Source: Yuukianura sp. NJ FZ-2021
Lineage: Eukaryota
DNA: 64,000 nucleotides
Direction: 5' to 3'
NCBI GenBank assembly: GCA_046563655.1
Contig: JAJCTO010000014.1
Span: forward strand, 186,001-250,000
In this document: positions 27,229 to 45,944 of the stretch, one piece after another
Numbering within the stretch: position 1 is the stretch's first letter
Layout of the letters: each line of letters begins with the position of its first letter
The notes under the pieces: generated by a model
What the model was told of the DNA's origin: nothing
Databases searched by the model: none
What the model saw: only the letters and a program-made list of their open reading frames with translations
Position numbers and translations under genes: made by a program

Positions 27229-27618
27229 CAGTGTTGCTGGATGCTTAAACGTGCAGTGGCTTAATTGCCAGTTCCACTGGATATCCAGTGGAAGAAATGG
27301 GGTCCTACTGGACGGTGGATGGAAGAAATCAGCTGAGTTCAAAAACTCAGCACAAATTTCAAATAAATTTTAAATAATTTTATGGAATAATTTAATTAAT
27401 TATTTATACCACGTTTGATTGATTGGTTTTGTTATTAGAAGTGACTATAGCACGATTTAGAGTTATTTTTATAGTGTTTTTGACCTGTTTCCACTTTTTA
27501 TTTTTAAATCATTCAGACCGTGCGGGCAAAGCTCCGCCCTTTGGATTCACCCATTTCGTCCCATTTCTTTTACTGGATATCCAGCCGCGGACGCAATGTT
27601 GGAAAGTGGATATCCATC
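27229..27618. mobile_element. Truncated copy of the hAT MITE at 41158-41556, with related fragments to about 28400
   Basis: Clear homology from CAGTGTTGCTGGATGCTTAAACG to GTGGATATCCA; right TIR lost. Confidence 0.8.
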
Positions 27619-29278
27619 GTATTGACATAACTTTTAACCTAATAAGCCATGGTGTAACTACCTGCTTGCAGGATACCATTCGGTCAAATAAATCAATCAA
27701 TCAATCAGAAACAGTGGTTTAAGCTAAAACGATATTACAATTTCCCTTTGCTTTTGGGAATTAACTGCTGCTGAAATAATGAGTAATTAAATCAATAGAA
27801 ATCTCCACTGCTATTCTTGAGAGCTATCCTTGCTTTGCATACTGTATTTGAATCTTTTCCGTTTTTTAATTTCAGATTAATTAATTAAGCCCACCTCTTT
27901 GGCTTCTTCATTTGGTCCATTTTTTCCATTTTTATCCAGCTTTGGATAAAATGTTTGAAAGGTGGATACCAAGCATTATTTTTCGATGGAAGGAAAGTAG
28001 GAGATGAGCCTACAATTCAAACAAATAGATGCTGATGACAGATAACAAACCAACGAAAGAAATGTTTTATAATTTCGCAAATTAATATATTTAAATTTAA
28101 ATTTAAACACTTTCAGAACTTCCCTAAAGTTTGAATTCCTAGTTTTAGTTGTAGTGGATGATAGTACTTTTTCCGGTGATGTGGTATTGCTTGATATCCA
28201 TTTTTTCGACATTTCATCCAGGGTTGGATATCAAGCGGACGAAAGTGGCATTCCAACCATTTTCAACGGATAAGTGGCATTCCAGCCACTTTCAGCGGAT
28301 AAAAGTGGTTTTCCAACCAATAACAGCGGATAAAAGTGACATTCTAAACACTTTCCTCGGATGAAAGTGGCATTCTAGCCACTTTCAACGGCTGAAAGTT
28401 ATTTGAAATTTTAATGATATTGTAATTTTTCTGTCAATGTTTACTTGCTAAAAATTTTCGTCCGGGTGGCACAATTGCTCGGGATGAAATAAAGTGCAAT
28501 CGGCGCTCAATCTGCTGAATCAACAATACTGTCGCTACTTCGTTATGTCTTCAAAAGATGGTTTTAAAAAAAATCAGCGGCACAATTTTGCGTAGTGATT
28601 CGCTGGTTTCTTGGAACTTTCGTAAGTTCAAAAACCGATTCATTTCTTGGCGATTAGTTAGGTACGGACATTACACTATTTACATTAGTATCACTTATCA
28701 CATTACAAAATACTTTTATAAAACGCCACTACACGAAAGCGTTACGGTTTGATGCCAAATTACTCAATATTCTGCGTTAAAATTGACAAGACGTACACTT
28801 CTTTTTTGAACTTGAGCAAAACAATTTTCAGTGCCGACTTTTAACGATTTTTGTTTACTTTTTTGGTTTCCACAGAAAGAAAATTTTCAAAATCTGAGTT
28901 GTGTTGTTTTACGTCGGAACGCTACAATTCATCAAGCTCAAGTTTGGTTTTTCTTTTGCGCTTAAAAAGAATCTTCATTCCAAACTGTCAGCTTAGGAAT
29001 GTCTTCTAATCACAACCAACCAAACATTCCGTCAAACTCTCACAAAAACAGGAACTTCTCTTAATCCAAATTTTTTCGCTGTTCAACTGTTCATTTTGCC
29101 TCTCCCCCACCAATTCCACTTTTTAAAACAAACTCATTCAAACATGTCTCAAAATTTGAAAAAACAGAAGTGGTCCAGAATGAGGAAGAAGAAGGGTGAA
29201 CATGATGACCTCCTCTAACACATCATCATTTCAAACTTTTTGAAATTTCAGTTCCACTTTCCCCCGCCACAAAAATTT

Positions 29279-29484
29279 TGTGCCGGCGGGATGCCCTGTG
29301 ACCTGAGATGCTAAGTGCTGGTGAGCCGACGAAAGGAAGTGGACGACGAGAGAGAAACAACCAAGAGAGATGAGAAACCAACGGATGGTTTATTGAGACT
29401 AAAGTGAGTGTGTGTATGTATGAATGCAATAGCCTATCATAGCCTATGGGGGTGAGTGGGGTGCTGTGTATGGGGTGTGGTACA
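29279..29484 (-). repeat. 3' LTR of the outer gypsy element
   Basis: Near-identical to 44220-44428 (few substitutions, one short divergent segment near the U5 end). Confidence 0.85.
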
Positions 29485-29663
29485 CATTGGGGGGCTGAAA
29501 AAAGGGGGTCCTCCGGGGGGGGGGTGTATGTCCAAAATCCGGGGGATGGTGCAAAGAAAATCCAAGAAAATCCAATGTACAAGGCCGGTCATCATCATCT
29601 AATCAGGAACAAGAGCACCATCCGGTGTCGGTTTTGTGTTTAATTTCGGCGGTGTCGCCTCCG

Positions 29664-31445
29664 CTAATTCTCCTCCCATTTTTCACTCTTTTTGGATTTG
29701 GCAAGAAAATATTCGGGATATTGTTCCATAACTTTCCGTTTTCTAATTTGCATGTTTCTCATGAAGCGTGAATCTTTCTTCAAATAAAGTTGACGGTCTC
29801 TGCAGTCACTCCGGACATGATTTGGTCGATAACAGATAAAGCAATATGGTGGAAGTTTTGAATTTGGAGTAGAAATGGTGGACTTCGAAGTTGAAAGAAC
29901 CGATTTATGACGCTTTGAGATGACAAATACTGGCTTCGTTTGGGTTTCAATTGAGCGATACACCGTTTCTTCGATGTAGCATTCAACTTCCATTTCTGAT
30001 TCATCGAGATCCGTCTGCGTTTCGGCAAATTTCCTCAATGTAATCTTGGGAGCTGGAGGAGGTTGACGCGGAGTTGATGTAGATGGGGTTGGTTCCAGAA
30101 ACGTTGAAATGTTGTCATCATCATCAGAAATTGTCAGTAAATCGAGCTCCTCTAGAGCGGTAAGTTCTTTGAAGCAGCGTTTGACTGTTTGCTGTGGAGT
30201 TGGAGTGGTTTCTTCGTTGTCTGAATCAATTTCAACCAAAATTGGAGGCGGATCAGGGCGAGGAGTGACTTTGATCAATTTTTTCGGCTTGGAGATGACT
30301 TTGAGAATTTCTAGAACATCTTGACAGAAGTGCTTTTGGAAGAAGTATGAATTGCTTGGCATGAAACCTAGAAGATCTTTCTCAGACTTAATCTTTTCTT
30401 TGTTGAGGCAAATAGTCATCAGTCTTGATGTTTCGCAAATCAGAGTTGGAGGTAAATCAAGTCTTTGAGCGGTCTCATCCCTTTTTTGGAACAATTTGGT
30501 GAAGTTTAGTCGGTCTTCAGCGGAACCAATGAATTTTCTCTTGACTTCTTCAAGATTCTCCAGTTTTGGAAGATGAAAAGAGGGTAAAATCTGATGAGGT
30601 CGTTCCAGTGATGCAATCCAAAAGTCTGATTTCAGCTTATGCATGACGTGACTTCCATACAACTTCTTGAGCTGGTTCCAAATTTTTAGCACAATGTGGG
30701 AATCAGTACGAGCGTATTCAATTTGTTCTGCCGTCAAAGGCCTCTGAGTCCAATTGGATGTCTGAAACTGATTTTTGTCTGGTAGTTGGATGTCAGGAAA
30801 GTAATGAGTAGCGATTTCAGTAAGAGATGCCTGTTTCTTGATGACTTTGGATGGTGGTTGTCCTTCTGCCTGATCTTTCCAACTTAAAAGTTCAATTTGG
30901 TAATTCCCCGTTAAATTGTAGTGAGCCTTTTGAACATCAACCACTGGGAAGGGAAATATCTCGAAATACAGATGGAATTTCGCCAGATCTTGTTGCGGTG
31001 CATGGAATATCTTCAGAATTTCCGGTTCTTCCAAGACAGATTTGAGTTCGGCGATGTGTTTGGCAAAGAGGAAAGGGCAGAGAATGTAGTCTTGACGGTT
31101 GGTTGAGAATTGTAGTAAAGCCGGGTAACTTGAGCCGAAATAGGAATTGTCTGACTTGAATTTAGTGCCAATCTTGGTTCCCGAAAATTCCATGTCAACT
31201 GCAAATGCGTCTTGACCCTCTAGGTCGCTTCTCATCATATTAAACTCTTCTAGAGTGGAAATTAATTTGACTGGAGTAGAGCTTCGGGTGTCGGACGTCC
31301 CATCACGATCTCGTAACTCGGCACGACGTGGGCAAAGAACAAATTTCTTTCCATCCTCATAAAATGGATGAACTTTCGTCCGGTTCAACTTTTTGTTCCG
31401 ATTGAGAACTGTTTCATGATATTCCCGGTAGTAGTAACTTTGCAT
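29664..31445 (-). CDS. Retrotransposon-borne Rrp6/RNase D-like DEDDy 3'-5' exonuclease + HRDC domain + C-terminal CCHC zinc knuckle (593 aa, intronless)
   Basis: ExoI FAVDMEF, LLQFST..QDYI, ExoII KIFHAPQQD, ExoIII WTQRPLTAEQIEYARTDSH; HRDC-like LFQKRDETAQRLDLPPTLI; CFICYRPNHVRSDC. Confidence 0.9.
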   Translation of the reverse strand: MQSYYYREYHETVLNRNKKLNRTKVHPFYEDGKKFVLCPRRAELRDRDGTSDTRSSTPVKLISTLEEFNMMRSDLEGQDAFAVDMEFSGTKIGTKFKSDNSYFGSSYPALLQFSTNRQDYILCPFLFAKHIAELKSVLEEPEILKIFHAPQQDLAKFHLYFEIFPFPVVDVQKAHYNLTGNYQIELLSWKDQAEGQPPSKVIKKQASLTEIATHYFPDIQLPDKNQFQTSNWTQRPLTAEQIEYARTDSHIVLKIWNQLKKLYGSHVMHKLKSDFWIASLERPHQILPSFHLPKLENLEEVKRKFIGSAEDRLNFTKLFQKRDETAQRLDLPPTLICETSRLMTICLNKEKIKSEKDLLGFMPSNSYFFQKHFCQDVLEILKVISKPKKLIKVTPRPDPPPILVEIDSDNEETTPTPQQTVKRCFKELTALEELDLLTISDDDDNISTFLEPTPSTSTPRQPPPAPKITLRKFAETQTDLDESEMEVECYIEETVYRSIETQTKPVFVISKRHKSVLSTSKSTISTPNSKLPPYCFICYRPNHVRSDCRDRQLYLKKDSRFMRNMQIRKRKVMEQYPEYFLAKSKKSEKWEEN

Positions 31446-31458
31446 CGGGCGGATCGTT

Positions 31459-31472
31459 CTGGAAATGGTTAG
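31459..31472 (-). promoter_or_regulatory. Putative branch point and 3' splice acceptor serving ORF3
   Basis: Minus strand CTAACCATTTCCAG lies 13 nt upstream of the ORF3 ATG; a second candidate acceptor (TTGATTACAG) is ~50 nt further upstream. Confidence 0.55.
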
Positions 31473-32218
31473 TTTCCTTTTAAGGCTCTGGTCTCGATTA
31501 GAATTTATCTGTAATCAACAAAATTGAAGATTTTAGTGATTTTTTATGATCTTTGGTGTTCAATTCCACCTCAAGTGGTTCACATACATCATAATACTCT
31601 TGAAAGTCAAAGAGATTCCCGTATTTGTTTTCAAATTTGACAACTAACGCTTTGTTTTAAAACCCGCTAAAGTACGGTAATTTATGCGCGACTTTTGTCG
31701 AAGATTTCTTTGATTGCCGATTTCTGATTGTAAGTCATTTGAATTTACGGTAGGACTTTCGTCTGAGGTACTGGGCTCTTCTTGAGCATTAATATTCGTC
31801 TGTTGTCTAGCAACATAATGTTTAATTTGATGCAGTGTATTTGCGCTTTTCAGCGCACTTCTCAACTTCCCCGTAAGTTAAGTTTTGTGTCCAGAGTGGC
31901 GGTTACTTTTAAGTCACCACCACTCTCTCTAAAACACATAGTTTTGGCACTCAATGTTTGAGTGCCGCTCAGCACACACTTAATTTAGTATTAAGGTTTT
32001 CATTAAATAAATCACTTCATTTATTTAAATCGGAATACACCACATTTGGCGTGGCTAGCGAAAACAACGATTCGACATCGTCACAGCAACAACAACACAA
32101 CTGGATAACGGTAATCGTCAACAACTTGGGCACGGTAAATCGGAATTGCCTATCCCCATAAAGTTACATTATCTAATCATTGTGAGCTTGCATAACTGAT
32201 TAAAATCTGAGGAACAGC

Positions 32219-35200
32219 ATGTCGTCTAGTAGCTCCTCTAAACCGAACGTCACTCCGACCCAGTTCGTAAACGTCATCGGTTCGGTTCCGTCCTTTGATC
32301 AGGACAAAGATGACTTCGACGACTGGACCGATCTTTTCAAGTTCTTTCTACTGTCGAACGGTATCGACGAAAAGGAACAAGAGACGAGATGCAAAGCAGT
32401 CTTCTGTTCGTCTCTAGGGATGCGTACTTACACGCTCCTTAAGGATCTTCTCTCTCCTGAGGATCCTACGTCCAAGTCACTTCAAGTGTTAATCGACACG
32501 TTGTCGAAACACTTCAAACCTTCACCTAAGGTAATTTCTGAACGTTTTAAGTTTGGAAAGAGGGTACAGCAACATGGTGAGTCCGTTGCTGAGTTTTTAG
32601 CAGAACTAAGAAAATTGGCTACGACATGCAAATTCACTTGTTGTCTCGATACTCGCCTCCGTGACCAGTTTATGTTAGGATTAGGCAATGCTGCTGCACA
32701 GAAACAACTGTTTACCAAGGAGGATGACATTTCGCTTGCTGACGTGCTCTCCCTTGCCCAATCACACGAACTTGCGATTAAGTCGCAACAGCTGATTCGC
32801 GATGGGAAATCGGATCAGAAGGAGGAGAACGTAAACGCTGTTTTCAACGGAAGGGTGGTAAAGGTCAATGGAAAAATAAGTCAAAACCGAAACCTAACAA
32901 TGTTCCACAGGAAAATCAAGGTCAGAAGAAGAACTGTCCAAATTGTGGCTCCAGTAAGCACTCTACCGCCAAGGACTGTGACAAGAAGGATGTTGAATGT
33001 CACTCATGTGGAAAAAAGGGTCACTACGCAAAATTCTGCAGGTCAAAGGGCAAGTCAGTCTCTGCCCAACGTGACAATTCTGGACATGGGAAAGTTTCAA
33101 ACATCTCGTCTGTCAATCATGTCCACTATGGTAAACGTAAGGAACTGTGCGTAAGTCTAATTGTCAATGGTGTTCCACATTCCTTTGAATTAGACACAGG
33201 CTGTGAACACAGTCTCCTTTCCGAGGATTTTTGGAAATCCCTCGGTTCTCCGACCTTGAAAAAGTCAACACTCGTCTTCAAGGGATATCCTGACGTGACG
33301 TTTCGACCAAAGGGTGAGTTACCTACGACAGTCTCGTACAATGGTCAAAATGTGTCACACCAGTTTCCAGTGACAACTGGTTCATCTCTGCTGGGTCATG
33401 ACCTCATGCAGAAGGTAAAACTGAATTGGGTTGAAATTGGCAAAAACTTGCCTCATTGTAACCTTGTGCAAAATTTAACGTTGGAAGGTGTGCTAACTGA
33501 ATTTTCTCAGGTTTTTGGCAATCCAACTGGGTCAGTCACGGACTTCCGTGCAAAAATTGTACTCAAAGAGGACGCTCAACCGAGGTTCCTCAAAGCACGT
33601 CCAATTCCGTTCGCACTCAGGTCAAAGGTCGACGAACAATTGGATCTCATGGTGAGTCAAGGAGTATTGACAAAAGTTGAGCATTCTGACTGGGCATCAC
33701 CTCTAGTTTGCGTTCTAAAGCCCAATGGTAAAGTCAGAATTACAGGGGATTTCAAAAACACTGTTAACTGTCAACTGAACATTAATCAGTATCCCATTGC
33801 TCGTACTGAGGATTTGTTTAATTTGCTTTCTGGTGGACAGAAGTTTTCAAAATTGGATGGCCCTGACGCCTTCCACCAAATCCCAGTAGACGAAAGTTGC
33901 AGAAAGTACTTGGTAGTCAACACCCACAAGGGGTTATACCAGTACAACGTCCTTCCACAGGGCATTTTGTCATCGCCTTCAATTTTCCAAGAATTCATGG
34001 ATGGGCTCTTGACTGGAATTCCAAAATCCGGGGCGTACATGGATGACGTCATATGTACTGGACATGACGACCACGCCCACCTCAACACCCTACGTCTCAT
34101 TCTGTCGCGGATGAGAGACCGCAACTTTTTTCTGAAGAGGGAAAAATGTGAGTTTATGCGGGAAAATGTTGATTTTGTTGGTTTTAGGTTGACGTCAGAT
34201 GGAATAAGCGCATCTCCTAAATTGGTTGAATCGATTCTCGAGATGCCCCAGCCGACCAACAAAAAGGAAATGAGTTCATTTTTGGGTTTGGTTAATTTTT
34301 ATCGTGGTTTTGTACCCAGTTTTGCAGAATTTTCAGCACCACTCTACAAATTGACGCACGATGACGTAGACTGGAAGTGGACAAACCAACACACGAAAAT
34401 TTTCAATCAAATCAAGCGGAAACTGTCCTCTACGGAAGTTCTCACTCTCTACAATCAGGATTTGCCCCTTGGGATATCCTGCGACGCTTCAGGTATTGGT
34501 CTCGGGGTGGTACTATTCCACAGAATGGCGGATGGTAAGGAAAAGCCAATTGCGTATGCGTCAAAAATCCTTACCAAAACTGAACAAAAATATTCTCAAA
34601 TTGAAAAAGAGGCATTATCAATTGTGTTTGGGTGCAAGAAATTTTACAAGTATCTTTTAGGCCGCCACTTCACCCTAGTAACCGACCACAAGCCTCTCGT
34701 GCACATTTTTGGCAAAAATAAGGCACTTCCGTCCTTCGCTGCGATTCGTGTTCATCGCTGGAGTCTGTTTCTACAACAGTTCTCTTACGACGTACACTAC
34801 AGGAAGACGACGGAACATGGGAACGCAGACGCCCTTTCACGCTTCCCAACTTCTGGTCATGACGTGACTTTTGACGACGACGACGAAGGACTTGTCAACG
34901 CAGTCAAAGTCGCAACCGAATCCGTCACCGTCACCTCTGCAGAAATCCAGAGGTATGCGAAAAAAGATAAAATTTTGTCGCAGGTTTTTAGGTACATTCG
35001 TGACGGTTGGCCAGACAAAGTGGACAAGAACGACCCCGTGTACCCATACTTTCTACGGAAGGAAGAGTTGACAATTGCCAGTAACGTTGTCCTATGGGGT
35101 ATCCGGGTACTCATTCCAGAAAAATTGAGAGAGCAACTCCTCCAGGAACTTCACTCTGCTCACACTGGAATTGTCAAGATGAAGTCTCTTGCTCGAGAAT

Positions 35201-37036
35201 TTTTCTGGTGGCCAAAACTGGACAGTGACATTGAGCAAGTCACGAAGCGTTGTACCCACTGCCGTGAGTCAGCCAAGGATCCACCACCAGCTGAGCTTCA
35301 TCCTTGGGAGTTTCCCCAAAAGCCGTGGCACCGTCTCCACGCAGATCTGGCCGGTCCATTCAAAGGTAAAATGTGGCTACTGATCGTAGACGCACATAGT
35401 AAGTGGCCAGAAGTGTTTTGCCTTAACTCTAATTCCACATCTCAGGCTCTAATTACCAAATTCCGTGAGTGTTTTGTCCGTTTTGGTATCCCAAGACAGG
35501 TGGTTACGGACAACGGACGCCAGTTCACTTCAACCGAATTTGTACAATTCTTGAAGTCGAACGGCGTAAAACATACGACAAGTTCAGTTTACCATCCTAG
35601 GTCCAATGGCGAGGCGGAGAACTTCGTCAACACCTTCAAAAAGTCAATTGAAAGTAAGGGTGATTTGGATTATTTGGTGCAAACTTTTTTATTCCAATAC
35701 AGAATCACTCCTCACATCACCACTGGAGTCGCACCCTGTGAGCTACTCCAAGGTCGCCGTCTCCGATCTTTATTTGATTTGTTACGTCCTGACGTGTCTC
35801 ATCAGGAACGACAGAAATCAAATTTCGACAAAGGAGCGAGACACCGCGAGTTCCAAATTGGTCAACGGGTTTGGTTCAAATCGTACAAAAAAGATTATCC
35901 AAAATGGTCATTAGGTGAAATTGTGGAATTCAAAGGTCCTGTAACTGTTGTTGTCCAGTTTGAGACTAGTAGGTACCGTCGTCACCAGGACCAATTACTC
36001 GACGCACGGACCTCTCCGTTTTCGTTTCAAAATTCGGAGGAGGAGGAAGTGGCACTGAACACTGCAAATCCAAAGCCAGTGTCACCACCAACCGCAAAGT
36101 CAACTCCAACGCCTAGTCGAACTCCAAATACGCCAGCCAAAGTCCCGTCTCCGCACTCGTTTGCTCCTATTTTGACTCCGCATCTTTGTTGGAGCGTTTT
36201 CAGGGTTTCTGAGTCGTCTCAGGCAAATTTCTATGTTCCCTATGTTAATTTTAGTCTTTCTAAAAAGTAAGGTTAAGTTAGTCTTTCATTTGTTTACACG
36301 TGTCGGTTTCTTTAGTTTCAATTTACATTTTGTGTCTTTTCCTAGAAACTGTCATTTCAATTGGGGTGGATTTACGACCCAACCCAAACCGTCTATTCTT
36401 ACTTCTGACCAGGTCAGCCCTTGAGGTCGACCTCTACTCTATAAATTCCCTTCATCTGCCATTCTCGGCAGGACAGTCTTTCATTAGTCTTCTCTCTTTC
36501 AACTAGTCACTGTCTTCATGTGTCCGTTGACCTCTGCGGAGTCAACTCTCTTGTGTCCGTCGTTGCTCTACTATAGAGACGACTCTACCTTTCCTTTGTG
36601 TGTGGTATCCTCTACTATTGTCTTTACTCCAACAGGAGTTAGTTCATTGTTTCAATAAACCAGTAAAGCCAACCATCTACTTGGGGTCACAGCAAAGGTC
36701 AAAGGCATTCATTTGTGTACAGTGGGTCTGATACAATACAACAGTATTCGGGTCGACCCAGTTGTGCTTCTCTCTTAGTTTCCGTCCATTCATGAATCCT
36801 GGGTGTTTACAGTCCGCCCAGCACTGAACAAGAGCAAACTACTCTTCAATCTTCCTACGGAGTACTCAAACGCTGATTCCGAACCGTCATCGGAATACAA
36901 GTCCCCGGACGAGGACGACTACACTACACCGTCCCCAAATCAAAGTCCGTTTACTTCCCCGGAAGCAACTCCAGCCCCTGCGCCGACTCAACGTCGCCCG
37001 GTTCTTCCACGTGCCGCTAAAGGCAAGAAAAACTGA
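32219..37036 (+). pseudogene. gag-pol: gag-pol of the nested Mag-like element; frameshift near 32850 and a 625-bp insertion in the C-terminal tail
   Basis: Gag ERFKFGKRVQQHGESVAEF, two CCHC knuckles in the pol frame, FELDTGC (protease), AYMDDV (RT), CDASGIGLG (RNase H), HADLAGP/TDNG/SNGEAE (integrase). Confidence 0.9.
36187..36811 (+). mobile_element. Solo-LTR-like insertion without a TSD
   Basis: TGTT...TACA ends, TATAAAT and AATAAA inside; removal rejoins ILTPHL-VRPALNK in frame. Confidence 0.6.
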
Positions 37037-40000
37037 AATGTAACGGTTTAGTGTATATAGTTTCTAAGGTTAAGTTAAGGTTCCCAACTACTAGTTGTAA
37101 CCTCCTCTTGAGGAAAGGTCACTTCCCTTCCCTCACCTTAACCTTCTTCACCCCCTCAGCGGATGGTCCAGCAAAACCTCGGTGCTGCTGGAGGCCTCGT
37201 CCACCTCCACGTCAAAGCAGTGGTTCCCACCGGGTACCAAGATGCTGGGGTCCCTTCCTTCTCTTTCCTTTTCCAAAACGTTTTGGAAAGTGACTTTTCC
37301 TAGAGGGGAAGGAAATGCAGTGTATTTGCGCTTTTCAGCGCACTTCTCAACTTCCCCGTAAGTTAAGTTTTGTGTCCAGAGTGGCGGTTACTTTTAAGTC
37401 ACCACCACTCTCTCTAAAACACATAGTTTTGGCACTCAATGTTTGAGTGCCGCTCAGCACACACTTAGATTTAGTTTTAAGTATTGATTAAATAAATCAC
37501 TTCATTTATTTAAATTCGCAATACACCACATTTGAGAAACATGTCTCTTTCCAATACTTTGTTTATCAACTGTCTGTAAAATGTCAACTGTCACATTAGA
37601 AAGTCGTTCTCCCAATTCATATGGGCCTTGCCATCTAGGCGCTAACTTTTCCATAAACCCAGACTCTTTGTCAGATTGAACATGGGATTTAACTAAGACT
37701 GAATGTCCTTTCTTGAAATTGTCTTGTATTCGACCTTTATCGTACTGTATTTTATTTTTCTCATGAGCTTTGTGAATATTTTCTCTTACAAATTGAACTA
37801 ACTCTTGTACCAATCTTGGTGTCTCTTTGAGTTCTTCAGAACTAACTTCTGGCTCTTCCAGAGCTAAATTTCTGTCGAATGGTAACTGGATTTCTCTCCC
37901 AAGATTTAATAAGGCTGGTGAAACTTTTGTAGTGTCATTCATCACGGTTCTGAGCGCTACGGCAAACTTCTGAATATTTTCTTCCCATTTATGGTGACTT
38001 GACTCCAAGTACGCTTGAAGCATTGCTTTTATGTTTCGATTTGTTCGTTCGGAATTATTGGCTTGAGCATGATACGGACTGATGAATTTGTGTTGAATAT
38101 TCCATTCAGAGCACAAGTTTTTGAGAATGTTTGAATCGAAGTATGTAGCATTGTCAGAGACGATTCTCTTTGGAGTGCCACACCGGCAAAATATATAATT
38201 TTCTAAAATGTCCGCAACTTTCTTCGCTGTGATTTCTGACGCAGGAAATAATTCAATCCATTTGGAAAGTTCGTCTAGAACGACAAGTAAATGTTTATTT
38301 TGTTTTCCTCCAGCACTCGTCGGCAGGGGTCCAATGAAATCAAAATGAATTGTAGAAAATACAGCCTTTGCTGGCTCTGCTAATTGCAGTAAACCGAATG
38401 GTTTATGATTATTTGATTTGGATCTTTGACAACGATCACATGACTTGACATAACTTGCAATTTCTTTGTTCATATTGTTCCAATAACATCTTTGTTTGAT
38501 TCTTTCGAGGGTTTTGGTTCTACCCAAGTGTCCCGCTTCTGGGGCATCATGAAAAATTTGTAAGATCCTTTGAGTCATTTGCTTTGGAATAACTGGAACA
38601 TAATAATCTTCTAGATTTTTTGCTTGTAGCTTTGTAGTTTTTGACCTTCTAAGTCTAAATTTTCAGCTGAAGTGCCTGTTTGTGCCGCGGTTTTGAAATG
38701 ATTGCAATCTGGTTGTAGACAGAGGGGAATATGACAAGTAGAGTCGCGAGCCTCTCTTGTTTTGGTAAGTGTTGGGTCCATCGATGGATTAGTAGTCATG
38801 CCCTTAAAGGGTTTAATTTTGATGAATAGGGTGTTTCTATCCATTTGGTAATTCTCCAAGCACCTTGGCCGAGATACTGAAGAATTCTGGAGCTGGTCAA
38901 TTATCTTGGAAAGATTTTCATCCTTCCGTTGCTCCTGGGCGATTTCATCTATTGTCGGAGTACAATAGACTAAGAGAAAACTCGGTAAATAGAGTGTTTC
39001 CCGGTCTTGGAACATATCGGGGTCTTCTGGACCTTCTGGGACACTAGCACGTGATAACGCGTCCGCCACCACGTTTTCGCATCCTTTGCGAAATCTGAGT
39101 TTCGCGTTCCACGATAAAATTTCCATTGCCCACTGCGTGAGTTTTGCTTTCTTGTTCTTCATACCTTTAAGGTATCGGACCGCTCGATTATCGGTTTCTA
39201 TGATGAAGGGGTGATCTTCTATGAATTCGCGGAATTTGTCGTATGCGAAAATAATAGCATAAAGCTCTTTTTCATAGATGTGTGCGCTTCTTTCTGACTG
39301 TTTCAAAGTCTTACTCACGAACATGATTGGTCTTTCCTTCCCTTCGTGTTCTTGAACAAGGGCTGCGCCTAAGCCAGTAGTTGAGGCGTCACATTGCATA
39401 ATCAGGGGTTTTGAATAGTCAATTGTTGTTAAAGTGACTGTATCGGAAATCGCGTCCTTGAGTAGTTGGAAGGACTGTTGTTGAGGGGTATCCCACTTCC
39501 ATTTCTTTCCTTTTCTGAGAAGTGTGTATAAATTTTCTGCTTTGATACTGTAGGTTTTGATGAAGCTGGAATACCAGCCACACATCCCAAGGAATCGGTA
39601 GAGTTCTTTCTTGTTAGATGGAGGTGGGTAGTTGGAAATTGCGACTTGTTTACTGGGTTGTTTTTGAATTCCATTTTGCGAAGCGACATATCCTAGACAT
39701 GGAACTTCATTCTTTGCGAAAATTGATTTCTCTCTTCCAATTGTGAGATTTGCTTCTCGTAGTCTCTCTAAGACGAGTTCGAGGTGTTTCATATGTTCCT
39801 CTAAATTTTTGGAGTAGATTAGGATATCGTCCATGAAAACTTTGACAAATTTGTCCACGTAACCGTGTAGAACGTTCCTCATGACTGCTTGGAATGTCTT
39901 TGGACTATTCTTAAGTCCCATGGGCATTACCAAAAATTCGTAATGTCCATCTTGTGTAATAAATGCTGTCTTCTCGATACTATCTTCATGCATCGGAATT

Positions 40001-40892
40001 TGCCAGAAGCCTCCGTTGAGATCAAGAACTGTGAAGACGTAATTCATTGGTATGGTTCTGAGAATTGAGTTAACATTGTCCATTGGACCTGCGTTTGTCT
40101 TCATGGCGTCGTTTAGACGAATGTAATTGACACAAAGGCGATAGGATCCTGATTTTTTCTTCACCATAACGACTGGAGCAGCATACGTTGAAGTAGAATG
40201 TCGAATCATTCCTTTCTGAAGTAACTTCTCAATTTCTTGATTCATAATTTCTCTCACATTTGGTGAGTATGAGTAAGGTGCGACTGCAATTGGTCTGCCT
40301 TGAGTTTCGATCTGATGACATCCGAAGCTTGTTCGTCCATAATTTCCATCCGGTCTTGCGACATCAGGGAATTTTTTGAGTACTTCTAGTACTTTTGCCT
40401 CTCTGGGATCTACTTTTTCATTTTGCGGAGGATTTTCAGTTGTAACTGTCAGAGCTACTATTTTTGCTTCACGTTCTGGAGAAAATTTGGTTTTGAATAT
40501 TTCATTTGGTCTTGACTTGAACCAAAATTGATCTGTAGAAACATCAATGATGATCTGGTACTTGTGCATGATATCCCGGCCAATGATTAAAGGAAATGGA
40601 AGTGTCTGCATCACAAAAGCTTTGACGTGGATGAATGTTCCTCCAAATTTGAGTTGAAGACTGATTTTTCCTAATGGCTTCAATTTTGAATTGTCGGCAA
40701 TGGTAAGTTGAAGTGAACATGGTTCGAAGAGTTTTTGAATTTTGTGAGCTAAATTTTTGTGAATTAGGGTGTAGTCACTGCCGGAATCGAATAACGCGTG
40801 AATTTCTTCTTGAGAGTTTGAGGTTGCGCAAAGTGAACTCAATTTGAGAATTGGGAGTAAATAAGATTGCGCTATCTTATTCTCCCTCAATA

Positions 40893-40899
40893 GTTTAAA
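40893..40899 (-). promoter_or_regulatory. Slippery heptamer TTTAAAC for -1 gag-pol ribosomal frameshift
   Basis: U UUA AAC sits at the gag end, immediately before the pol ORF. Confidence 0.7.
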
Positions 40900-41157
40900 T
40901 TTTGAGATGAATTTTGCTCCTGTCCCTCTAGAACTTGAAATTCTTTCTGTTCACTGTCTCCAGTGAAAAGTACAAGTGGTTTCTTGTTTCCGCATTCATT
41001 TGCCCAATGCCCATAACCTTGGCACTTTGGACATTTCCCAGGGGGATCTTTCTGCGATTTGGAACTTGGTCCTGGCTGTTGATTGTCATTGTTTCTTCCC
41101 TGTTCGGAATTTTGATTTCGGGAATTCCCGTATCCTTGGTTTTGATAACCACGTTTG

Positions 41158-41556
41158 CAGTGTTGCTGGATGCTTAAACGTCCAGTGGCTTAATTGCCAC
41201 TTCCACTGGATATCCAGTGGATGAAATGGGGTCCAACTGGACGGTGGATGGAAGAAATCAGCTGAGTTGAAAAACTCAGCGCCAATTTCAAATAAATTTG
41301 AATTAAATAATAGGAAATACTTTAATTAAGTATTTAAACCGCTTTTGTCTAATTGGTTTTGTTATTAGAACTTATTTTAGCACGATTTCCGGTTGTTTTT
41401 GTATTGTTTTTGATTCCTTTTCGATCTTTATTATCAAATTATGCATACCCTGCGGGCAAAGCTCCGCCCCTTTGGATTCATCCATTTCGTCCATTTCATC
41501 CACTGGATATCCAGCCGTGGATGAAATGTCGAAAAAGTGGATATCCAGCAACACTG
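41158..41556. mobile_element. hAT-type MITE in gag
   Basis: TIR CAGTGTTGCTGGAT / ATCCAGCAACACTG; 8-bp TSD CACGTTTG. Confidence 0.92.
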
Positions 41557-44219
41557 CACGTTTGTAACCTCGACGAAATGGTCTCGAAGAATTGTACCCA
41601 CGATTGGAGTACTGAGCCACATATCCTTCATCTTGCGATCCGGAATTTCGTTGAAAAGGGTTGTAATTGGGATTGTAGTTTCTGCCTTTGTAATTTGTGT
41701 TTTGTCCATTGTTCTGGTAACGTCCGTGTCCTTGTACACGTCGGTGAAATCCTCTAGATTGTCGTCTGCGATTTGAAAACCCTCTAGGTTGAGATTGATT
41801 CTCTTCCTGTGTTTCTTTTTGTTGATTTGATTCGGAATTGTAAACGACTCTCGAGCCTTGTTGATAATTCTGAGCATTGTTGTATCCTCTGGTATTTCTG
41901 GTACGGGCGGGATTGAAATCTCTGCGAAAAGTTTCCTCGCTGATTGTTGGTTGTATTCTGGAGACTGGCTGCCACAAGTGGAGGTAAAGCGTCATAAATT
42001 CTGCGACTTTTGTCCTCTGCTGTAAGATTTTCATGTGCAACTCGACAAGCTGCAAACAATTCTTGTGGAGTCTCGAACTCTCTTTCCCCAAGTGGGGTTC
42101 TAAGTCTTGGAAACAATGAAGCTTTGACTCTTTTGATCATTTGTTTAAGTGTTTCACTTGGAAAACACAACTTTGCTAAACGTAGCATTTCATAGATGTA
42201 CGTCTCCGTAGGATCTTTAAAATGTTGAACTCTGTTCGTAAAATATTTGATCCGATTTCTCTGTTCATCCTCTCCGTCGTAACGTTCAATGAAAGTTTTC
42301 TTAAATTCTTCCCAATCCTTTGTTTCAGAATGGACATGTTGCCACCAAGCATGACTTTCCTCTGGAAGAACAGTTTTGACTAAATATAGCCATTGTTGAG
42401 GTGCGTGACCTTGCGTAGTGAAGAAACGTTCAACGTCTTTGAGAAATGATTCTGCGGTATGCCGCTTTGGATTAAATTTTGGCAGTGGCAGTTGAGAATT
42501 AACTGCTGTGACCCGAACGTTTTTGAGAGCTTCAGCCAAAGCTTCCGTCGTAACGAAGCTTGAAGTCGGAGATGCTGGTGAATGTCCAGTTGAAATTTGT
42601 AAGGTTTTGGGCCGCTGTGCTGAAGTTGATTGAATTGGGATTGAACCAATTTGTTGTTGAGTATTTGTCTCTGCTAATTTTTGCTGTTCAGCAGCTTTTC
42701 TTTGAGCTTCTGCTATCTGTCTGGTCCTTTCAGCTTCATTTATAGCTGCTGTAAACAACTGAGCAAGTGCTGCCATCTGCCGGTCACTGAATGGGTAATC
42801 CGTTTCTACTTCCTGTTGGTTTGATCTGTCAATCATTTGTTGATCCAAATTCAGGTTCTGCCCAAAATTTTGATTTTCTGGCGTAGATTGTGCGGTAGTA
42901 GCTGAGCTTCCAGCTTCCTCTGACCTTTGACCTTCTAGGTCTGACATTGTTGTCGTTGATTTGCGAATTATTCGTCCACTTCGAGTTTTGCTTGCTCCAA
43001 ATGTTGGAGTTGGAATTTTCGTTTGCGTAGGTTTTTTGCTCATTAAGCACTTTTGAGGATCCTTCTAGGATTTGGCGTTATGAAATTTAATTTTTAATTT
43101 AAAATTGTTCGATTTAGCAGTTAACTTGTTTTAAAAACTTTAAATTTTAACGAAAATCCAAAAATTTTCTTTGCTTTACGAAGTTTGTCAATTAATTTGC
43201 AAATTATTTAAATCGTTAACGTGAATGAATTAATTAAAATCTTTACAAATGTTCAAAAGTTCGTTAAAACTTGATTAATTTACAGTTTGTCCCTCTAGGA
43301 CTGAATTATTTGCTTTACAGTTGAGTCTCTTTTGAATTTATAAACAAAACAGTTAATTTTTGCACGAAAGTTTGAATTTACCAATTGTTTTTGTCGAACA
43401 GCTGACTTTTGTTTTTGTTTTGATTTGAATTGTCAGTTTTTTGCGAAATTGGAATTTGTTTTGTCAATCAGCTGACTTTTGTTTTTGTTTACATCTCAAA
43501 TGTCAATTTTTCTGTTTTGTAGTATTTTGTAGTTTCATCCATTAGCATTTGTTCAGTTTTGTAGTTTTGCAACTTTTCAATTGTACTTTTTCAAGTTTTT
43601 GAAATACGTCAATTTGCTGAATTCTCATTGGATGTGTTTTAACCTGTGGTGGTATGGTCGGGTGGGAATACAATCTCCCCTTCTTCTTCCTTTTTTTTTC
43701 CGTTATGGGCGTAGCTTCTCAACAGCCATTTTAACTTTTTTGACAAAAAGAACGCTATGTCTTTAGATTTCCAGAAAAATCGGGCAGCACCCGTGCCCCA
43801 ATTTACAATTTCAAAAAAAAATCGCCTTCCAGGCCTTATGTCGTTCACCCCTGACCTTCTGGTCGCTTGCGGGGGTTATGATGTGCTGTGAAGGTGGGAG
43901 AGGAAGAAAAAGACACCACAGAGCTCTATCTTCCTCGTTATGTTTTTAAATTTTTGACAGATTTAAGAAATTTTAGCCAATTTTAACTTTTAACCAGTTT
44001 TAATTTTTTAAATTTTTAACGTTTTAACTTTTTAGAACTTTAACTTCCCGTCTTCAGCTCCACTGACAGGTTTTTTAAAGAAAAATCTTCAAAATCCGGC
44101 GAAAGGAAGAGGAAAACCTCTTTGACTTTCACATTTTGACAATTTTTGTTAGTTTTTACCGTTGTTGTGAGTAGTTCCTGAGGATTGCGGGTTCGTCTCC
44201 TTGACAACAGATCGACACG

Positions 44220-44428
44220 TGTGCCGGCGGAGGTTGACCTGGTGACCTGAGATGCTAAGTGCTGGTGAGCCGACGGAAGGAAGTGGACGACGAGAGAGAG
44301 ACAACCAAGAGAGATGAGAAACCAACGGATGGTTTATTGAGACTGAAGTGAGTGTGTGTATGTATGAATGCAATAGCCTATCATAGCCTATGGGGGTGAG
44401 TGGGGTGCTGTGTATGGGGTGTGGTACA
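44220..44428 (-). repeat. 5' LTR of the outer gypsy element
   Basis: Direct repeat of 29279-29484, upstream of a ~1.2-kb leader and gag. Confidence 0.85.
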
Positions 44429-45648
44429 GGCATTGGCGACAAGGGTCAAGTTCGAGAAAGTTCAAGTTCAGAAGATCAGGAAAAAGAAGAAATGGCAGCG
44501 TCTTCTAATGTCGCTCCTGCAGAAAAAGAAGATGTTGCAGTTGAACGGGAGCCGAGTACATCATATCCATTTCGTGTTTCCAGCGGTTATATTCCTTTGT
44601 CGTCTCATTATCAACCTTCACCATTTGTTCTAGATACCATGAACGAGAATTTTACGGTTTTGCCCTTCGAGTCACCTTCAATGAGTAACTACATGGGTAC
44701 ACAGGACACGTTCACAATTACAGAACCATTTTCACCGCCGCCTCGTCCTATGGATGTCATGATTGAGCATCGTGTTCCTTCTGGACACTACGGTCTTGGA
44801 TGCACCCCTCCAAGAAACGAAATTCAGCGTAGACAACTTCCTACTGAACCATCAGTCCAGCAGCAGGCGATGTTCAACCGAAGGTATCGAAATCGACTTG
44901 ATCCAATTGTGAGTCCGGTTTTCCCGAATCTCACTACTGGAAAGCGACCATGGGCTTCACATGCACATCTCCGACATCATCACAAGAAACAGCATCAGCA
45001 CCATCCACAGCAACCGAAAGTTGCCGAAGAGAAGAAGGAAAGTGACAACAAGCAGATGCAGCCAGTAGAAGGCAAGACACTTCATAAATATCATCCGAAG
45101 AACAAGATTTTTCGTTTTGGGAATTACAACCAGTACTATGGGTATCGAAATGCTGGGCAAGCAGAGGATGCTCGACTGAGAGCATTCAAAAGAGAATGGA
45201 TTGAAGGGAAAAATGTACTGGACATTGGATGTAACGTTGGACATGTGACACTCTGCCTGGGACGGGACTTTGGACCACGCGGGATCCTGGGAATTGACAT
45301 AGACGGATACTTGATCAAGGTGGCCAAGAAGAACATCAAGCATTACGTGGATCGAGATCCAAACGACGTGAGTATAAAGTTTCCTCTCGCCCTTTCAATC
45401 GTACATGGAAGTCTTCAACCTCCACAGTTGGAAGCGGCCGTGGGGAAAACACCGGAGTATGCAGGATCCAGTGCTACGCCGACGTCGACCAGTGGCAGCC
45501 AAGGAGAACGCAAGAGGATTCTGTTTCCGTACAACGTCGGTTTCCGACAAGTATGTCTATCATTTTACTTTTTTCTAACTTTTCACAAGAAGATTCTAAT
45601 GTTTCTTTTGAATTTTAGGAAAATTACGTTATGGAAGATTACGTTATG
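44429..45648 (+). pseudogene. MEPCE: 7SK snRNA methylphosphate capping enzyme (MePCE/Bin3), truncated in the methyltransferase domain
   Basis: FRFGNYNQYYGYRN, VLDIGCNVGHVT, GIDIDGYLI, FPYNVGFRQ|ENYV (intron 45551-45618); sequence switches to satellite at 45648 before the C-terminal Bin3 motifs. Confidence 0.85.
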
Positions 45649-45944
45649 GTTTTAGCGTTCAAATGTTTAAATTCTGAATGTGGAGAGAGGCGTCTCTGCC
45701 ATCGCTGTACTATGAGTCCTTCCTAGACGTGATCAAATTTCCGACAATTCCAAAAACAACACAAGTGTTAGCGGTCAAAGTTTGAAGTTACGGCCCCATG
45801 CAAACCGGGTAGAAACTTCGCTCACGGGGGGTTCTAAAAGCCGATGCAAACTTTTAAAAAAATTCCCTCCTCACGAACTGAGGGGTTTTAGCGTTCAAAA
45901 GTTTAAATTCTGAATGTGGAGCGAGGCGTCTCTGCCATCGCTGT

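What the first reader, a model, noticed from the sequence alone, without database searches (positions are those of the whole stretch)
29279..44428. Gypsy retrotransposon carrying an intact Rrp6/RNase D-like exonuclease-HRDC-zinc knuckle gene in the env position
Seen: between the end of pol (31644) and the 3' LTR (29484), on the element's strand, is an intronless 593-aa ORF with all DEDDy catalytic residues (DME, HAPQQD, YARTD), an HRDC-like segment and a Gag-like CX2CX4HX4C knuckle. The nested element hides the link, but removing it with its TTTGA TSD rejoins the integrase tail in frame, placing this ORF ~200 bp after pol and inside the LTR pair. Established: DEDDy+HRDC is the architecture of exosome nuclease Rrp6/EXOSC10 and RNase D; the third gypsy ORF, when present, is normally env. 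Inference: a retrotransposon lineage captured an RNA-surveillance nuclease and fused it to an RNA-binding knuckle, possibly to trim or destroy piRNA/siRNA, decoy the exosome, process primers or proofread reverse transcription. ORF3 is open while gag and pol each carry frameshifts and insertions. I know of no description of this cargo but cannot search.
Basis: partly seen in the sequence, partly recalled or inferred. Interest (0 to 1): 0.92.

Follow-up and report, generated by a model that had tools for sequence, protein, structure and literature searches.

The report
Gypsy retrotransposon carrying Rrp6-like exonuclease gene
A decayed jumping gene in an animal genome carries, where an envelope gene would normally sit, a gene for an RNA-trimming nuclease related to the cell's Rrp6; the gene belongs to the element family, but this kind of cargo was already described in bdelloid rotifers in 2017.

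Summary
A minus-strand Ty3/gypsy element (LTRs 29279-29484 and 44220-44428) has a 593-codon third ORF (29664-31445) 198 nt after pol. It has an intact DEDDy site, an Rrp6-type EXO+HRDC fold and a C-terminal nucleocapsid-type CCHC knuckle. A second gypsy (31831-37530, TSD TTTGA) is nested in the integrase tail.

The ORF is not a one-off capture:
- A diverged sister copy in the same sample joins pol, tail and ORF3 without the insert.
- Three of three informative metagenome contigs place a homologous ORF directly after a gypsy integrase, one of them a complete LTR-gag-pol-ORF3 element.
- Three springtail gene models fuse an integrase C-terminus to the same exonuclease.

These proteins form a clade of their own beside cellular Rrp6, so the capture is old.

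The claim that this cargo is undescribed is wrong. Rodriguez, Kenefick and Arkhipova (2017) reported DEDDy exonuclease ORF3s in bdelloid rotifer LTR retrotransposons. What is new is a different gypsy lineage, a probably arthropod host, and a clearly shown HRDC plus knuckle.

This copy is dead. ORF3 staying open is not significant, and its conserved N-terminus runs upstream of the first ATG. The function remains inferred: an element-serving 3'-5' exoribonuclease.

The parts
29279..29484 (-). 3' LTR of the outer gypsy element (206 bp, TG..CA ends)
   Evidence: Direct repeat with 44220-44428
29664..31445 (-). ORF3, 593 aa: short Rrp6-type N-terminal segment, DEDDy EXO domain (about residues 60-265), HRDC (about 298-385), disordered linker (403-527), CCHC knuckle (535-548) and a helical tail
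31446..31514 (-). In-frame stretch upstream of ORF3's first ATG, open back to a stop. Its last 5 codons still match the family profile, so the native start is probably lost in this copy
31644..31825 (-). C-terminal tail of pol (integrase tail), cut off from the rest of integrase by the nested element; stop at 31644-31646
   Evidence: a sister copy is contiguous across this point
31831..37530 (+). Nested, unrelated gypsy element (gag 32219-33154, pol 33406-36270, LTRs 31831-32044 and 37316-37530) with 5-bp TSD TTTGA at 31826-31830 and 37531-37535; no ORF3
   Evidence: joint 31824->37530 in contigs of 3 runs; its pol is only 24-28% identical to the outer pol
37531..38662 (-). Outer integrase (H2C2 zinc finger, rve core, SH3/GPY-type C-terminus), in a different frame from RT-RNase H
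38611..40950 (-). Outer pol: end of protease, RT, RNase H (frame -2); the frame changes before integrase
41156..41558 (.). 403-bp MITE-like insert with 16-bp perfect terminal inverted repeats, lying in the gag/protease region of the outer element; very high copy number
   Evidence: (depth about 83,000 against a few hundred nearby; joint 41151->41559)
41784..43064 (-). Outer gag (Retrotrans_gag / Arc-capsid-like). The C-terminal part, including any knuckle, is not recognisable
44220..44428 (-). 5' LTR of the outer element, followed on the element's strand by a conserved non-TGG motif CGTGTCG

Best explanation
The region is a dead copy of a low-copy Ty3/gypsy LTR retrotransposon. Its family carries, as a regular third gene after pol, an Rrp6-derived 3'-5' exonuclease: a DEDDy EXO domain, an HRDC domain and a C-terminal nucleocapsid-type CCHC knuckle. 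It lacks Rrp6's PMC2NT domain.

The gene was not taken recently from this host. It belongs to an old clade beside cellular Rrp6, and at least one subclade of it travels with one gypsy pol lineage in several organisms. It is the same kind of cargo as the DEDDy ORF3 reported in bdelloid rotifer retroelements.

Inferred mechanism, with my odds:
- The product is an active, exosome-independent, distributive 3'-5' exoribonuclease (about 0.8).
- The knuckle brings it to the element's RNA or particle.
- There it trims 3' ends for the element's benefit. Either it processes a replication RNA or cDNA end, such as an unusual primer (about 0.35), or it removes host-added tails or small RNAs as counter-defence (about 0.25).

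The anatomy, the homology and the linkage to the element are shown. Activity, substrate and benefit are inferred.
For: Anatomy:
- LTRs, gag-PR-RT-RH-IN order, and ORF3 198 nt after pol and inside the LTRs.

Linkage to the element family:
- A 5064-bp contig of the same sample covers 40253-37530 and 31824-30306 contiguously. It differs from the window by 165 letters and 15 gaps in the pol part and 192 letters and 7 gaps in the tail/ORF3 part. The joint appears in contigs of all 3 runs laid.
- The summed depth over ORF3 is of the same order as over pol and gag.
- 3 of 3 metagenome loci with upstream sequence place a homologous ORF 0-140 nt after a gypsy integrase. L001 is complete: LTRs 99% identical, gag, pol, ORF3. 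The fourth locus was too short to judge.
- The outer pol is 43-53% identical to the pol of those loci, against 24-28% to the nested gypsy.
- Springtail gene models P0016, P0021 and P0022 carry an integrase C-terminus before the exonuclease. P0021 matches the window integrase at 35% identity, E=3e-19.

Homology:
- The family profile hits EXOSC10 at 7e-78 and yeast Rrp6 at 8e-75, against RNase D at 2e-33, and includes the segment N-terminal of EXO.
- AlphaFold model: mean pLDDT 74, above 90 over most of EXO and HRDC. The top 13 Foldseek hits are Rrp6 catalytic cores, with 372-402 aligned columns.
- The knuckle profile hits retroviral nucleocapsids, E=8e-5.

Constraint:
- The catalytic pentad DEDYD is present in 23 of 31 aligned family members.

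Clade:
- 27 rows form one clade (SH-aLRT 99) sister to 16 Rrp6-like rows, with RNase D-like rows as outgroup. A FastTree of 124 rows agrees.
Against: - No RNA data: no listed run is on record as RNA, so expression and splicing are unknown.
- This copy is broken. There is a frame change in pol, two insertions and no TSD, and ORF3 lacks the family's N-terminal 26 profile positions and its usual start. The window copy itself is probably non-functional.
- 3 of the 31 aligned family members have a damaged pentad (P0004, which is the ORF3 of the otherwise intact-looking L001, plus P0018 and P0147); 3 others carry DEEYD and 1 is a fragment. Activity may therefore be dispensable.
- Retrotransposon linkage is shown directly for only 5 of the 18 rows of the subclade holding the window ORF (window, P0004, P0047, P0032, P0021). 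The rest of the 27-row clade is assigned by tree position and knuckle only, and some members named 'ribonuclease D' could be cellular genes.
- Relatedness to the rotifer ORF3s was not tested.
- Rodriguez et al. found no clear link between the ORF and copy number, and no departure from neutrality within a genome.
Confidence: 0.8

Rival explanations
1. One-off capture: a host Rrp6/EXD-type mRNA was retrocopied into this single element copy and has nothing to do with the family.
For: ORF3 is intronless and the copy sits in a nest of insertions.
Against: A diverged sister copy has pol, tail and ORF3 contiguous. Homologous ORFs follow a gypsy integrase in 3 of 3 informative metagenome loci and in 3 springtail gene models. 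ORF3 has no poly(A) tract or TSD of its own. It lies in a clade apart from cellular Rrp6.
Confidence: 0.02
2. Domesticated gene: the element is dead but ORF3 has been kept by the host as a working exonuclease, which is why it alone is open.
For: ORF3 is open over 593 codons, while pol has a frame change and gag and pol carry insertions.
Against: The chance of no new stop from substitutions alone is about 0.14 at the LTR divergence of 4.4%, which is not significant. The conserved N-terminus runs upstream of the first ATG with no start there. Several copies exist at a depth like that of pol. Some copies carry a 262-nt deletion inside ORF3. No expression data are available.
Confidence: 0.04
3. 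The product acts chiefly as a counter-defence nuclease. It removes host-added 3' tails (oligo-U or oligo-A marks for decay) from element RNA, or degrades small silencing RNAs, rather than processing a replication intermediate.
For: Rrp6-type enzymes trim 3' ends of RNA (established knowledge). The nearest solved DEDDy-plus-CCHC protein is Trypanosoma brucei RNase D, crystallised with U12 RNA (entry titles). The knuckle profile also resembles the knuckles of the uridylyltransferases TUT4/7. The protein lacks PMC2NT, so it should work outside the exosome.
Against: There is no direct evidence. The similarity to T. brucei RNase D is much weaker (E about 1e-17) than to Rrp6. Rodriguez et al. saw small RNAs mapping to the ORF3s like any other part of the element.
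Confidence: 0.25
4. Catalytically irrelevant: the protein works as an RNA-binding or structural factor, as EXD1 and Maelstrom do, or substitutes for env.
For: 3 of the 31 aligned family members have a broken pentad, including the ORF3 of the complete element L001. The position is that of env.
Against: The pentad is kept in 23 of 31 divergent members and D170 in 31 of 31. The model shows no transmembrane or coiled-coil segment: EXO, HRDC, a disordered linker, then knuckle and helices. Rodriguez et al. reached the same view for the rotifer ORFs.
Confidence: 0.08

Closest known systems
DEDDy (RNase D-like) ORF3 of Juno and Vesta LTR retrotransposons and of Athena/Terminon retroelements in bdelloid rotifers (Rodriguez, Kenefick, Arkhipova 2017, PMC5408684; passages read)
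   Same: A third ORF after pol, inside the LTRs, encoding a DEDDy 3'-5' exonuclease. It lacks env features, lies closer to other retroelement copies than to cellular homologues, and has a Cys/His motif noted in some families. Its function is unknown, with the same candidate roles discussed.
   Different: There the catalytic motif is DEED, the elements are rotifer-specific lineages with a dUTPase, and the paper text does not contain the word HRDC (0 occurrences). Here the motif is DEDD+Y, Pfam found no dUTPase in the complete relative's pol, and HRDC and a CX2CX4HX4C knuckle are clear. The host's flanking genes look arthropod rather than rotifer. Sequence relatedness of the two sets was not tested.
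Rrp6 / EXOSC10, nuclear exosome exonuclease
   Same: It shares the N-terminal EXO extension, the DEDDy EXO domain and one HRDC domain. Rrp6 is the best match by sequence profile (7e-78) and by fold.
   Different: There is no PMC2NT domain and no recognisable exosome-binding C-terminus; a CCHC knuckle stands in its place. The ORF3 clade lies outside the sampled Rrp6 clade, and the gene is encoded by a retrotransposon.
Trypanosoma brucei RNase D (PDB 7c42-7c4c, chains named 'CCHC-type domain-containing protein')
   Same: A DEDDy exonuclease combined with a CCHC zinc finger, and an RNA 3'-end trimmer (entry titles; its biology is recalled, not read here).
   Different: It is a cellular enzyme and the match is much weaker (E about 1e-17 against 1e-78 for EXOSC10). 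No HRDC match was seen in the aligned range.
DEDDy exonuclease domain inside Dada DNA transposases (Kojima and Jurka 2013, PMC3706591; passages read)
   Same: A mobile element that encodes a DEDDy 3'-5' exonuclease, proposed to process 3' ends during transposition.
   Different: It is a DNA transposon, with the domain embedded in the transposase rather than in a separate ORF, and there is no HRDC.

Membership tests
Ty3/gypsy LTR retrotransposon | Pair of direct long terminal repeats with TG..CA ends | tested here: met
   29279-29484 and 44220-44428; 9 mismatches and one indel over 206 aligned bases
Ty3/gypsy LTR retrotransposon | gag followed by pol in the order PR-RT-RNase H-IN | tested here: met
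   Pfam hits in that order on the minus strand. Collinear with the complete relative L001.
Ty3/gypsy LTR retrotransposon | 4-6 bp target-site duplication | tested here: not met
   The flanks of the outer element do not match. The nested element does have TTTGA.
Ty3/gypsy LTR retrotransposon | tRNA-type primer binding site (TGG...) after the 5' LTR | tested here: inconclusive
   No TGG. Instead CGTGTCG follows the LTR directly, both in the window and in L001.
Rrp6/EXOSC10 | DEDDy catalytic residues in an EXO domain | tested here: met
   D84, E86, D153, Y244 and D248 align with Rrp6; Pfam E=1.2e-22
Rrp6/EXOSC10 | HRDC domain after EXO | tested here: met
   Sub-threshold in the window by Pfam (E=0.0065). 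The family profile hits the EXOSC10 HRDC structure 2cpr at 2.3e-6, and Foldseek alignments to Rrp6 cores span EXO+HRDC.
Rrp6/EXOSC10 | N-terminal PMC2NT domain (Rrp47 binding) | tested here: not met
   No PMC2NT hit in ORF3 or in any of the ORF3-type relatives scanned; the only PMC2NT hit among the 27 proteins is the cellular Rrp6-like P0013. Only about 60 residues precede EXO.
Rrp6/EXOSC10 | Falls inside the Rrp6 clade | tested here: not met
   The ORF3-type clade (27 rows, support 99) is sister to the 16 Rrp6-like rows (quick IQ-TREE; limited sampling).
Retroelement DEDDy ORF3 (bdelloid Juno/Vesta/Athena type) | Separate ORF downstream of pol, inside the element, homologous to DEDDy exonucleases | tested here: met
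Retroelement DEDDy ORF3 (bdelloid Juno/Vesta/Athena type) | Sequence kinship with the published rotifer ORF3s | not tested
The only hint is three clade members with the DEED variant that the paper reports.
Nucleocapsid-type CCHC zinc knuckle | CX2CX4HX4C spacing, conserved among relatives | tested here: met
   Residues 535-548. All four knuckle columns read C-C-H-C in 16 of 31 aligned family members, most of the rest being gapped there or fragments. A profile of 4 gypsy-linked C-termini hits HIV-1 NC at 8e-5. The window alone is sub-threshold in Pfam.

The most novel reading that the evidence does not exclude
The exonuclease belongs to an ancient, retroelement-specific offshoot of Rrp6, shared by gypsy lineages from rotifers to arthropods. 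It works as a retrotransposon-encoded counter-measure to host RNA surveillance: tethered by its knuckle to the element's RNA, it strips host-added 3' tails or small guide RNAs, or it creates the unusual non-tRNA-end primer implied by the conserved CGTGTCG site.
Probability: 0.2. Interest if true: 0.8.

Novelty: new member of a known kind. Interest (0 to 1): 0.5.

Why it matters
LTR retrotransposons rarely carry enzymes beyond protease, RT, RNase H and integrase. A nuclease of the RNA-surveillance type, conserved with its active site and travelling with one gypsy lineage in several animals, suggests a step in retroelement replication or host evasion that is not yet understood.

This case adds four things to the rotifer report. 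The cargo occurs outside rotifers. It is specifically Rrp6-derived, with HRDC and a nucleocapsid-type knuckle. It forms its own clade. And complete natural relatives exist on which the biochemistry could be tested. It is not the first description, and the window copy itself is a wreck.

Tried and rejected
- No whole genome is held for the window, so there is no genome-wide copy census or dN/dS. The sister copy is known only through read laying tables, not as sequence.
- The word-based homologue search found only 2 distant hits.
- The search for related loci with the 22-sequence alignment found no conserved stretch to search with. A 4-sequence alignment worked. The same query in viral contigs found nothing.
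- No listed sequencing run is on record as RNA.
- Among the 15 joints shown, none skips ORF3 as a whole; 99 further joints were not shown.
- The earlier-findings index had nothing on this genome or sequence.
- tRNA and Rfam scans of the window were empty, so the primer behind CGTGTCG stays unidentified.
- A ZCCHC8 match of the family profile (3.7e-5) shrank to the knuckle alone when the C-terminus was searched on its own (E=0.19).
- The protein Atlas gave only sub-0.9 leads: exo+CCHC proteins of Euglenozoa, and Rrp6.
- The host could be narrowed only to 'animal'. The best named matches of the flanking MEPCE-like gene are ticks and mites at 41-51% identity over part of the protein. The dynein exon is 56-63% identical to many metazoans, including Rotaria at 56%.
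- Literature searches for further prior art turned up only papers from the Arkhipova laboratory (PMC5408684, PMC6431247, PMC5718144), one paper citing them (PMC6338049) and the Dada paper (PMC3706591).

Full report
**What is there**

The window is animal DNA at about 34-46% G+C.
- An axonemal dynein heavy-chain gene lies on the minus strand in the first 22 kb.
- A MEPCE/Bin3-like methyltransferase ORF starts just outside the finding.
- Between 29279 and 44428 lies a minus-strand Ty3/gypsy element. Its LTRs are 29279-29484 and 44220-44428, with TG..CA ends, 9 mismatches and one 3-nt indel over 206 aligned bases.
- On the element's strand the order is gag (41784-43064), the end of protease with RT and RNase H (38611-40950), integrase (37531-38662), a short integrase tail (31644-31825) and a third ORF (29664-31445). 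Then come 179 nt and the 3' LTR.

**The nested element**

A second, unrelated gypsy sits at 31831-37530 on the plus strand.
- Its LTRs are 31831-32044 and 37316-37530, about 95% identical, and it is flanked by TTTGA on both sides.
- The integrase frame that runs into it resumes in the same frame on the far side and ends at 31644-31646.
- Independent proof that this is an insertion comes from other DNA of the same sample. Contigs of all three runs laid show a joint from 31824 to 37530 that skips 5705 bases.

**State of this copy**

The copy is dead.
- pol changes frame between RNase H and integrase. Matches to a complete relative lie in frame -2 up to 38872 and in frame -1 from 38605.
- A 403-bp MITE-like repeat with 16-bp perfect inverted ends lies at 41156-41558 in the gag/protease region. 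Other copies lack it.
- The C-terminal third of gag is not recognisable.
- The outer element has no target-site duplication.
- ORF3 is open for 593 codons, but that says little. At the LTR divergence of 4.4%, about two stop-creating substitutions are expected in it, so the chance of none is about 0.14 before counting indels.
- A profile of 30 relatives, built without the window, aligns from 5 residues upstream of ORF3's first ATG and has 26 more N-terminal positions with no counterpart. A stop lies 23 codons upstream of the ATG. The native start is probably gone, so 'intact' overstates it.

**What ORF3 encodes**

- Pfam gives DNA_pol_A_exo1 at residues 61-261, E=1.2e-22.
- D84, E86, D153, Y244 and D248 align with the ExoI, ExoII and ExoIII motifs of Rrp6.
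- By sequence, the closest solved structures are Rrp6 cores. The alignment to Trypanosoma brucei Rrp6 runs through residue 347.
- A profile of ORF3 and 30 relatives hits human EXOSC10 at 7e-78 and yeast Rrp6 at 8e-75. It hits E. coli RNase D at 2e-33, mut-7/Nibbler at 1e-24, WRN at 8.5e-10 and EXD1 at 1e-5. The EXOSC10 match starts in the Rrp6-specific segment before EXO. The isolated EXOSC10 HRDC structure is also hit, at 2.3e-6.
- An AlphaFold model has mean pLDDT 74, above 90 over most of residues 60-390. It shows a helical HRDC-like bundle at 298-384, a disordered stretch at 403-527, and a confident knuckle-plus-helices module at 530-593.
- The top 13 Foldseek matches are Rrp6 catalytic cores (E 3e-17 to 4e-14, 372-402 aligned columns), followed by RNase D.
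- In the window's own protein, HRDC (E=0.0065) and the zinc-knuckle families (E=0.054 and 0.38) are below Pfam thresholds.
- The CX2CX4HX4C motif at 535-548 recurs near the C-terminus of relatives. A profile of four gypsy-linked C-termini best matches retroviral nucleocapsid knuckles (HIV-1 NC, E=8e-5).
- No PMC2NT domain is found in ORF3 or in any ORF3-type relative scanned; the only PMC2NT hit is the cellular Rrp6-like P0013.

**Is ORF3 part of the element?**

Yes, on four lines of evidence.

1. A 5064-bp contig of the same sample covers 40253-37530 and then 31824-30306 without a break. It differs from the window by 165 letters and 15 gaps in the pol part and by 192 letters and 7 gaps in the tail, spacer and ORF3 part. 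It is therefore another, diverged copy with pol and ORF3 linked. Summed contig depth over ORF3 (about 190-370 in run X1) is of the same order as over pol and gag (about 360-500). Contigs identical to the window have depth about 40, which points to a handful of copies, though the tool warns that depth is not a copy number.

2. An exhaustive profile search found 1011 relatives at E<=1e-3, but only one at E<=1e-30, at 39% identity. The best hits share ORF3's layout. Of 27 top hits scanned with Pfam, all 27 have the EXO domain and 17 an HRDC hit. Many carry the C-terminal knuckle. One metagenome scan returned four loci. In all three with upstream sequence, the ORF follows a gypsy integrase directly. 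L001 is a complete element: LTRs 99% identical, gag, a 1214-residue PR-RT-RH-IN-SH3 pol, then the ORF 104 nt later. L002 and L003 hold the integrase end and then the ORF after 81 and 0 nt, counted stop to stop. The fourth locus is too short to judge.

3. The window's pol is 43-53% identical to the pol of those loci, but only 24-28% identical to the nested gypsy that lacks the ORF. The 5' LTR of the window and of L001 is followed by the same CGTGTCG motif.

4. Five gene models of the springtail Orchesella dallaii belong to the family. Three of them (P0016, P0021, P0022) begin with an integrase C-terminus before the exonuclease. P0021 residues 14-118 match the window integrase at 35% identity, E=3e-19.

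**Where the gene came from**

- In a FastTree of 124 rows, ORF3 and all 15 knuckle-bearing rows fall in one 32-row group (support 98), apart from RNase D-like and Rrp6-like rows.
- In a mixture-model IQ-TREE of 53 rows, the 27 ORF3-type rows form one clade (SH-aLRT 99). It is sister to 16 Rrp6-like rows (support 93), including a butterfly EXOSC10, with 10 RNase D-like rows as outgroup.
- The window ORF lies in an 18-row subclade (support 95) that holds every member with a demonstrated gypsy link.
- The capture is therefore old, not a recent theft from this host.
- Caveats: only a quick search was run, the rows are search hits rather than a designed sample, and retrotransposon linkage is shown for 5 of the 18 rows only.
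- The pentad DEDYD is kept in 23 of the 31 aligned family members. Three have DEEYD, one is a fragment, and three are damaged, among them the ORF of the complete L001.

**Prior art**

Full-text searches found Rodriguez, Kenefick and Arkhipova 2017 (PMC5408684; abstract and passages read).
- Bdelloid rotifer LTR retrotransposons Juno and Vesta carry RNase D-like DEDDy exonuclease ORF3s, acquired at least twice.
- These ORFs are shared with Athena/Terminon elements and lie closer to each other than to cellular RNase D, mut-7, WRN or Rrp6.
- Their motif reads DEED, and Vesta2 and Vesta5 have a Cys-His-Cys motif.
- The authors discuss 3'-end processing and silencing-related roles, and note that activity is undemonstrated.
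- Two reviews from the same laboratory repeat this (PMC6431247, PMC5718144; passages). One opinion paper lists the domain as a known accessory domain (PMC6338049; passage).
- Dada DNA transposons also carry a DEDDy domain (PMC3706591; passages).
- I found no paper reporting such an ORF outside rotifers, naming HRDC in it, or placing it beside Rrp6.

**Host**

- The best named matches of the flanking methyltransferase are ticks, an oribatid mite and a sea spider, at 41-51% identity over part of the protein.
- The dynein exon is 56-63% identical to many animals, with Rotaria at 56%.
- The host is an animal, probably an arthropod and probably not a bdelloid, but this is not settled.

**How it most likely works**

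Shown: an Rrp6-type EXO+HRDC core with a complete active site, no exosome-docking N-terminal domain, a flexible linker, a nucleocapsid-type knuckle, and conservation with one gypsy lineage.

Inferred: the product is an exosome-independent, distributive 3'-5' exoribonuclease. The knuckle brings it to the element's RNA or particle, and it trims 3' ends to the element's benefit. I see two concrete versions.
- Processing of a replication intermediate. The site after the 5' LTR is conserved and does not start with TGG, so the primer may not be an intact tRNA 3' end, and a trimming enzyme could make it (about 0.35).
- Counter-defence, by removing host-added tails or small RNAs (about 0.25). The nearest solved exonuclease with a CCHC finger is T. 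brucei RNase D, crystallised with U12.

Proofreading of reverse transcription is possible, but nothing here favours it.

**Verdict**

The core interpretation is right: an Rrp6-like nuclease with a knuckle is integral third-gene cargo. The novelty claim is not right.

This is a new member, in a different gypsy lineage and probably a different phylum, of a kind described in 2017. Its domain architecture is clearer, and a set of natural relatives makes the open question of function testable.

Noticed in passing
window 41156-41558 and 27229-27630: A 403-bp MITE-like element with 16-bp perfect terminal inverted repeats (TGCAGTGTTGCTGGAT), present twice in the window. Summed contig depth is about 83,000, against a few hundred for its neighbours, so it is very abundant in this genome.
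   Followed up: partly
window about 44200-44219 (minus strand) and L001:163-175: CGTGTCG follows the 5' LTR directly in both the window element and the complete metagenome relative. There is no TGG, so the primer is probably not a plain tRNA 3' end. No tRNA gene or Rfam match in the window explains it.
   Followed up: partly
window 29274-29278 and 44429-44433: The outer element has no matching target-site duplication. The six bases before both LTR copies on the element's strand share CCAATG, which hints at recombination or rearrangement.
   Followed up: partly
window 30074-30336: Contigs of two runs show copies with a 262-nt stretch of ORF3's disordered linker replaced by 5 letters, so linker length varies among copies.
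   Followed up: no
window 44390-45655: The MEPCE/Bin3-like methyltransferase ORF abuts the 5' LTR. Its longest ORF starts at an ATG inside the LTR (34 extra codons), so the element sits at or in the gene's 5' end.
   Followed up: partly
window 50949-53102: A 717-codon open frame combines SV2 luminal/pentapeptide-repeat matches with a weak match to a bacterial Sde182 nucleoside-hydrolase-like domain. This is an odd mix for an animal gene.
   Followed up: no
window 60036-60686: A weak match (E=8.5e-4, below threshold) to organellar/viral type-B DNA polymerase, possibly a Polinton/Maverick-type remnant.
   Followed up: no
L001:6108-7760: The ORF3 of the otherwise intact-looking complete element has glycine in place of the ExoI glutamate, so an apparently young element may carry an inactive nuclease.
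   Followed up: partly
L002:5400-6080: An array of 41-bp tandem repeats lies about 2.4 kb downstream of the exonuclease ORF on the metagenome contig.
   Followed up: no
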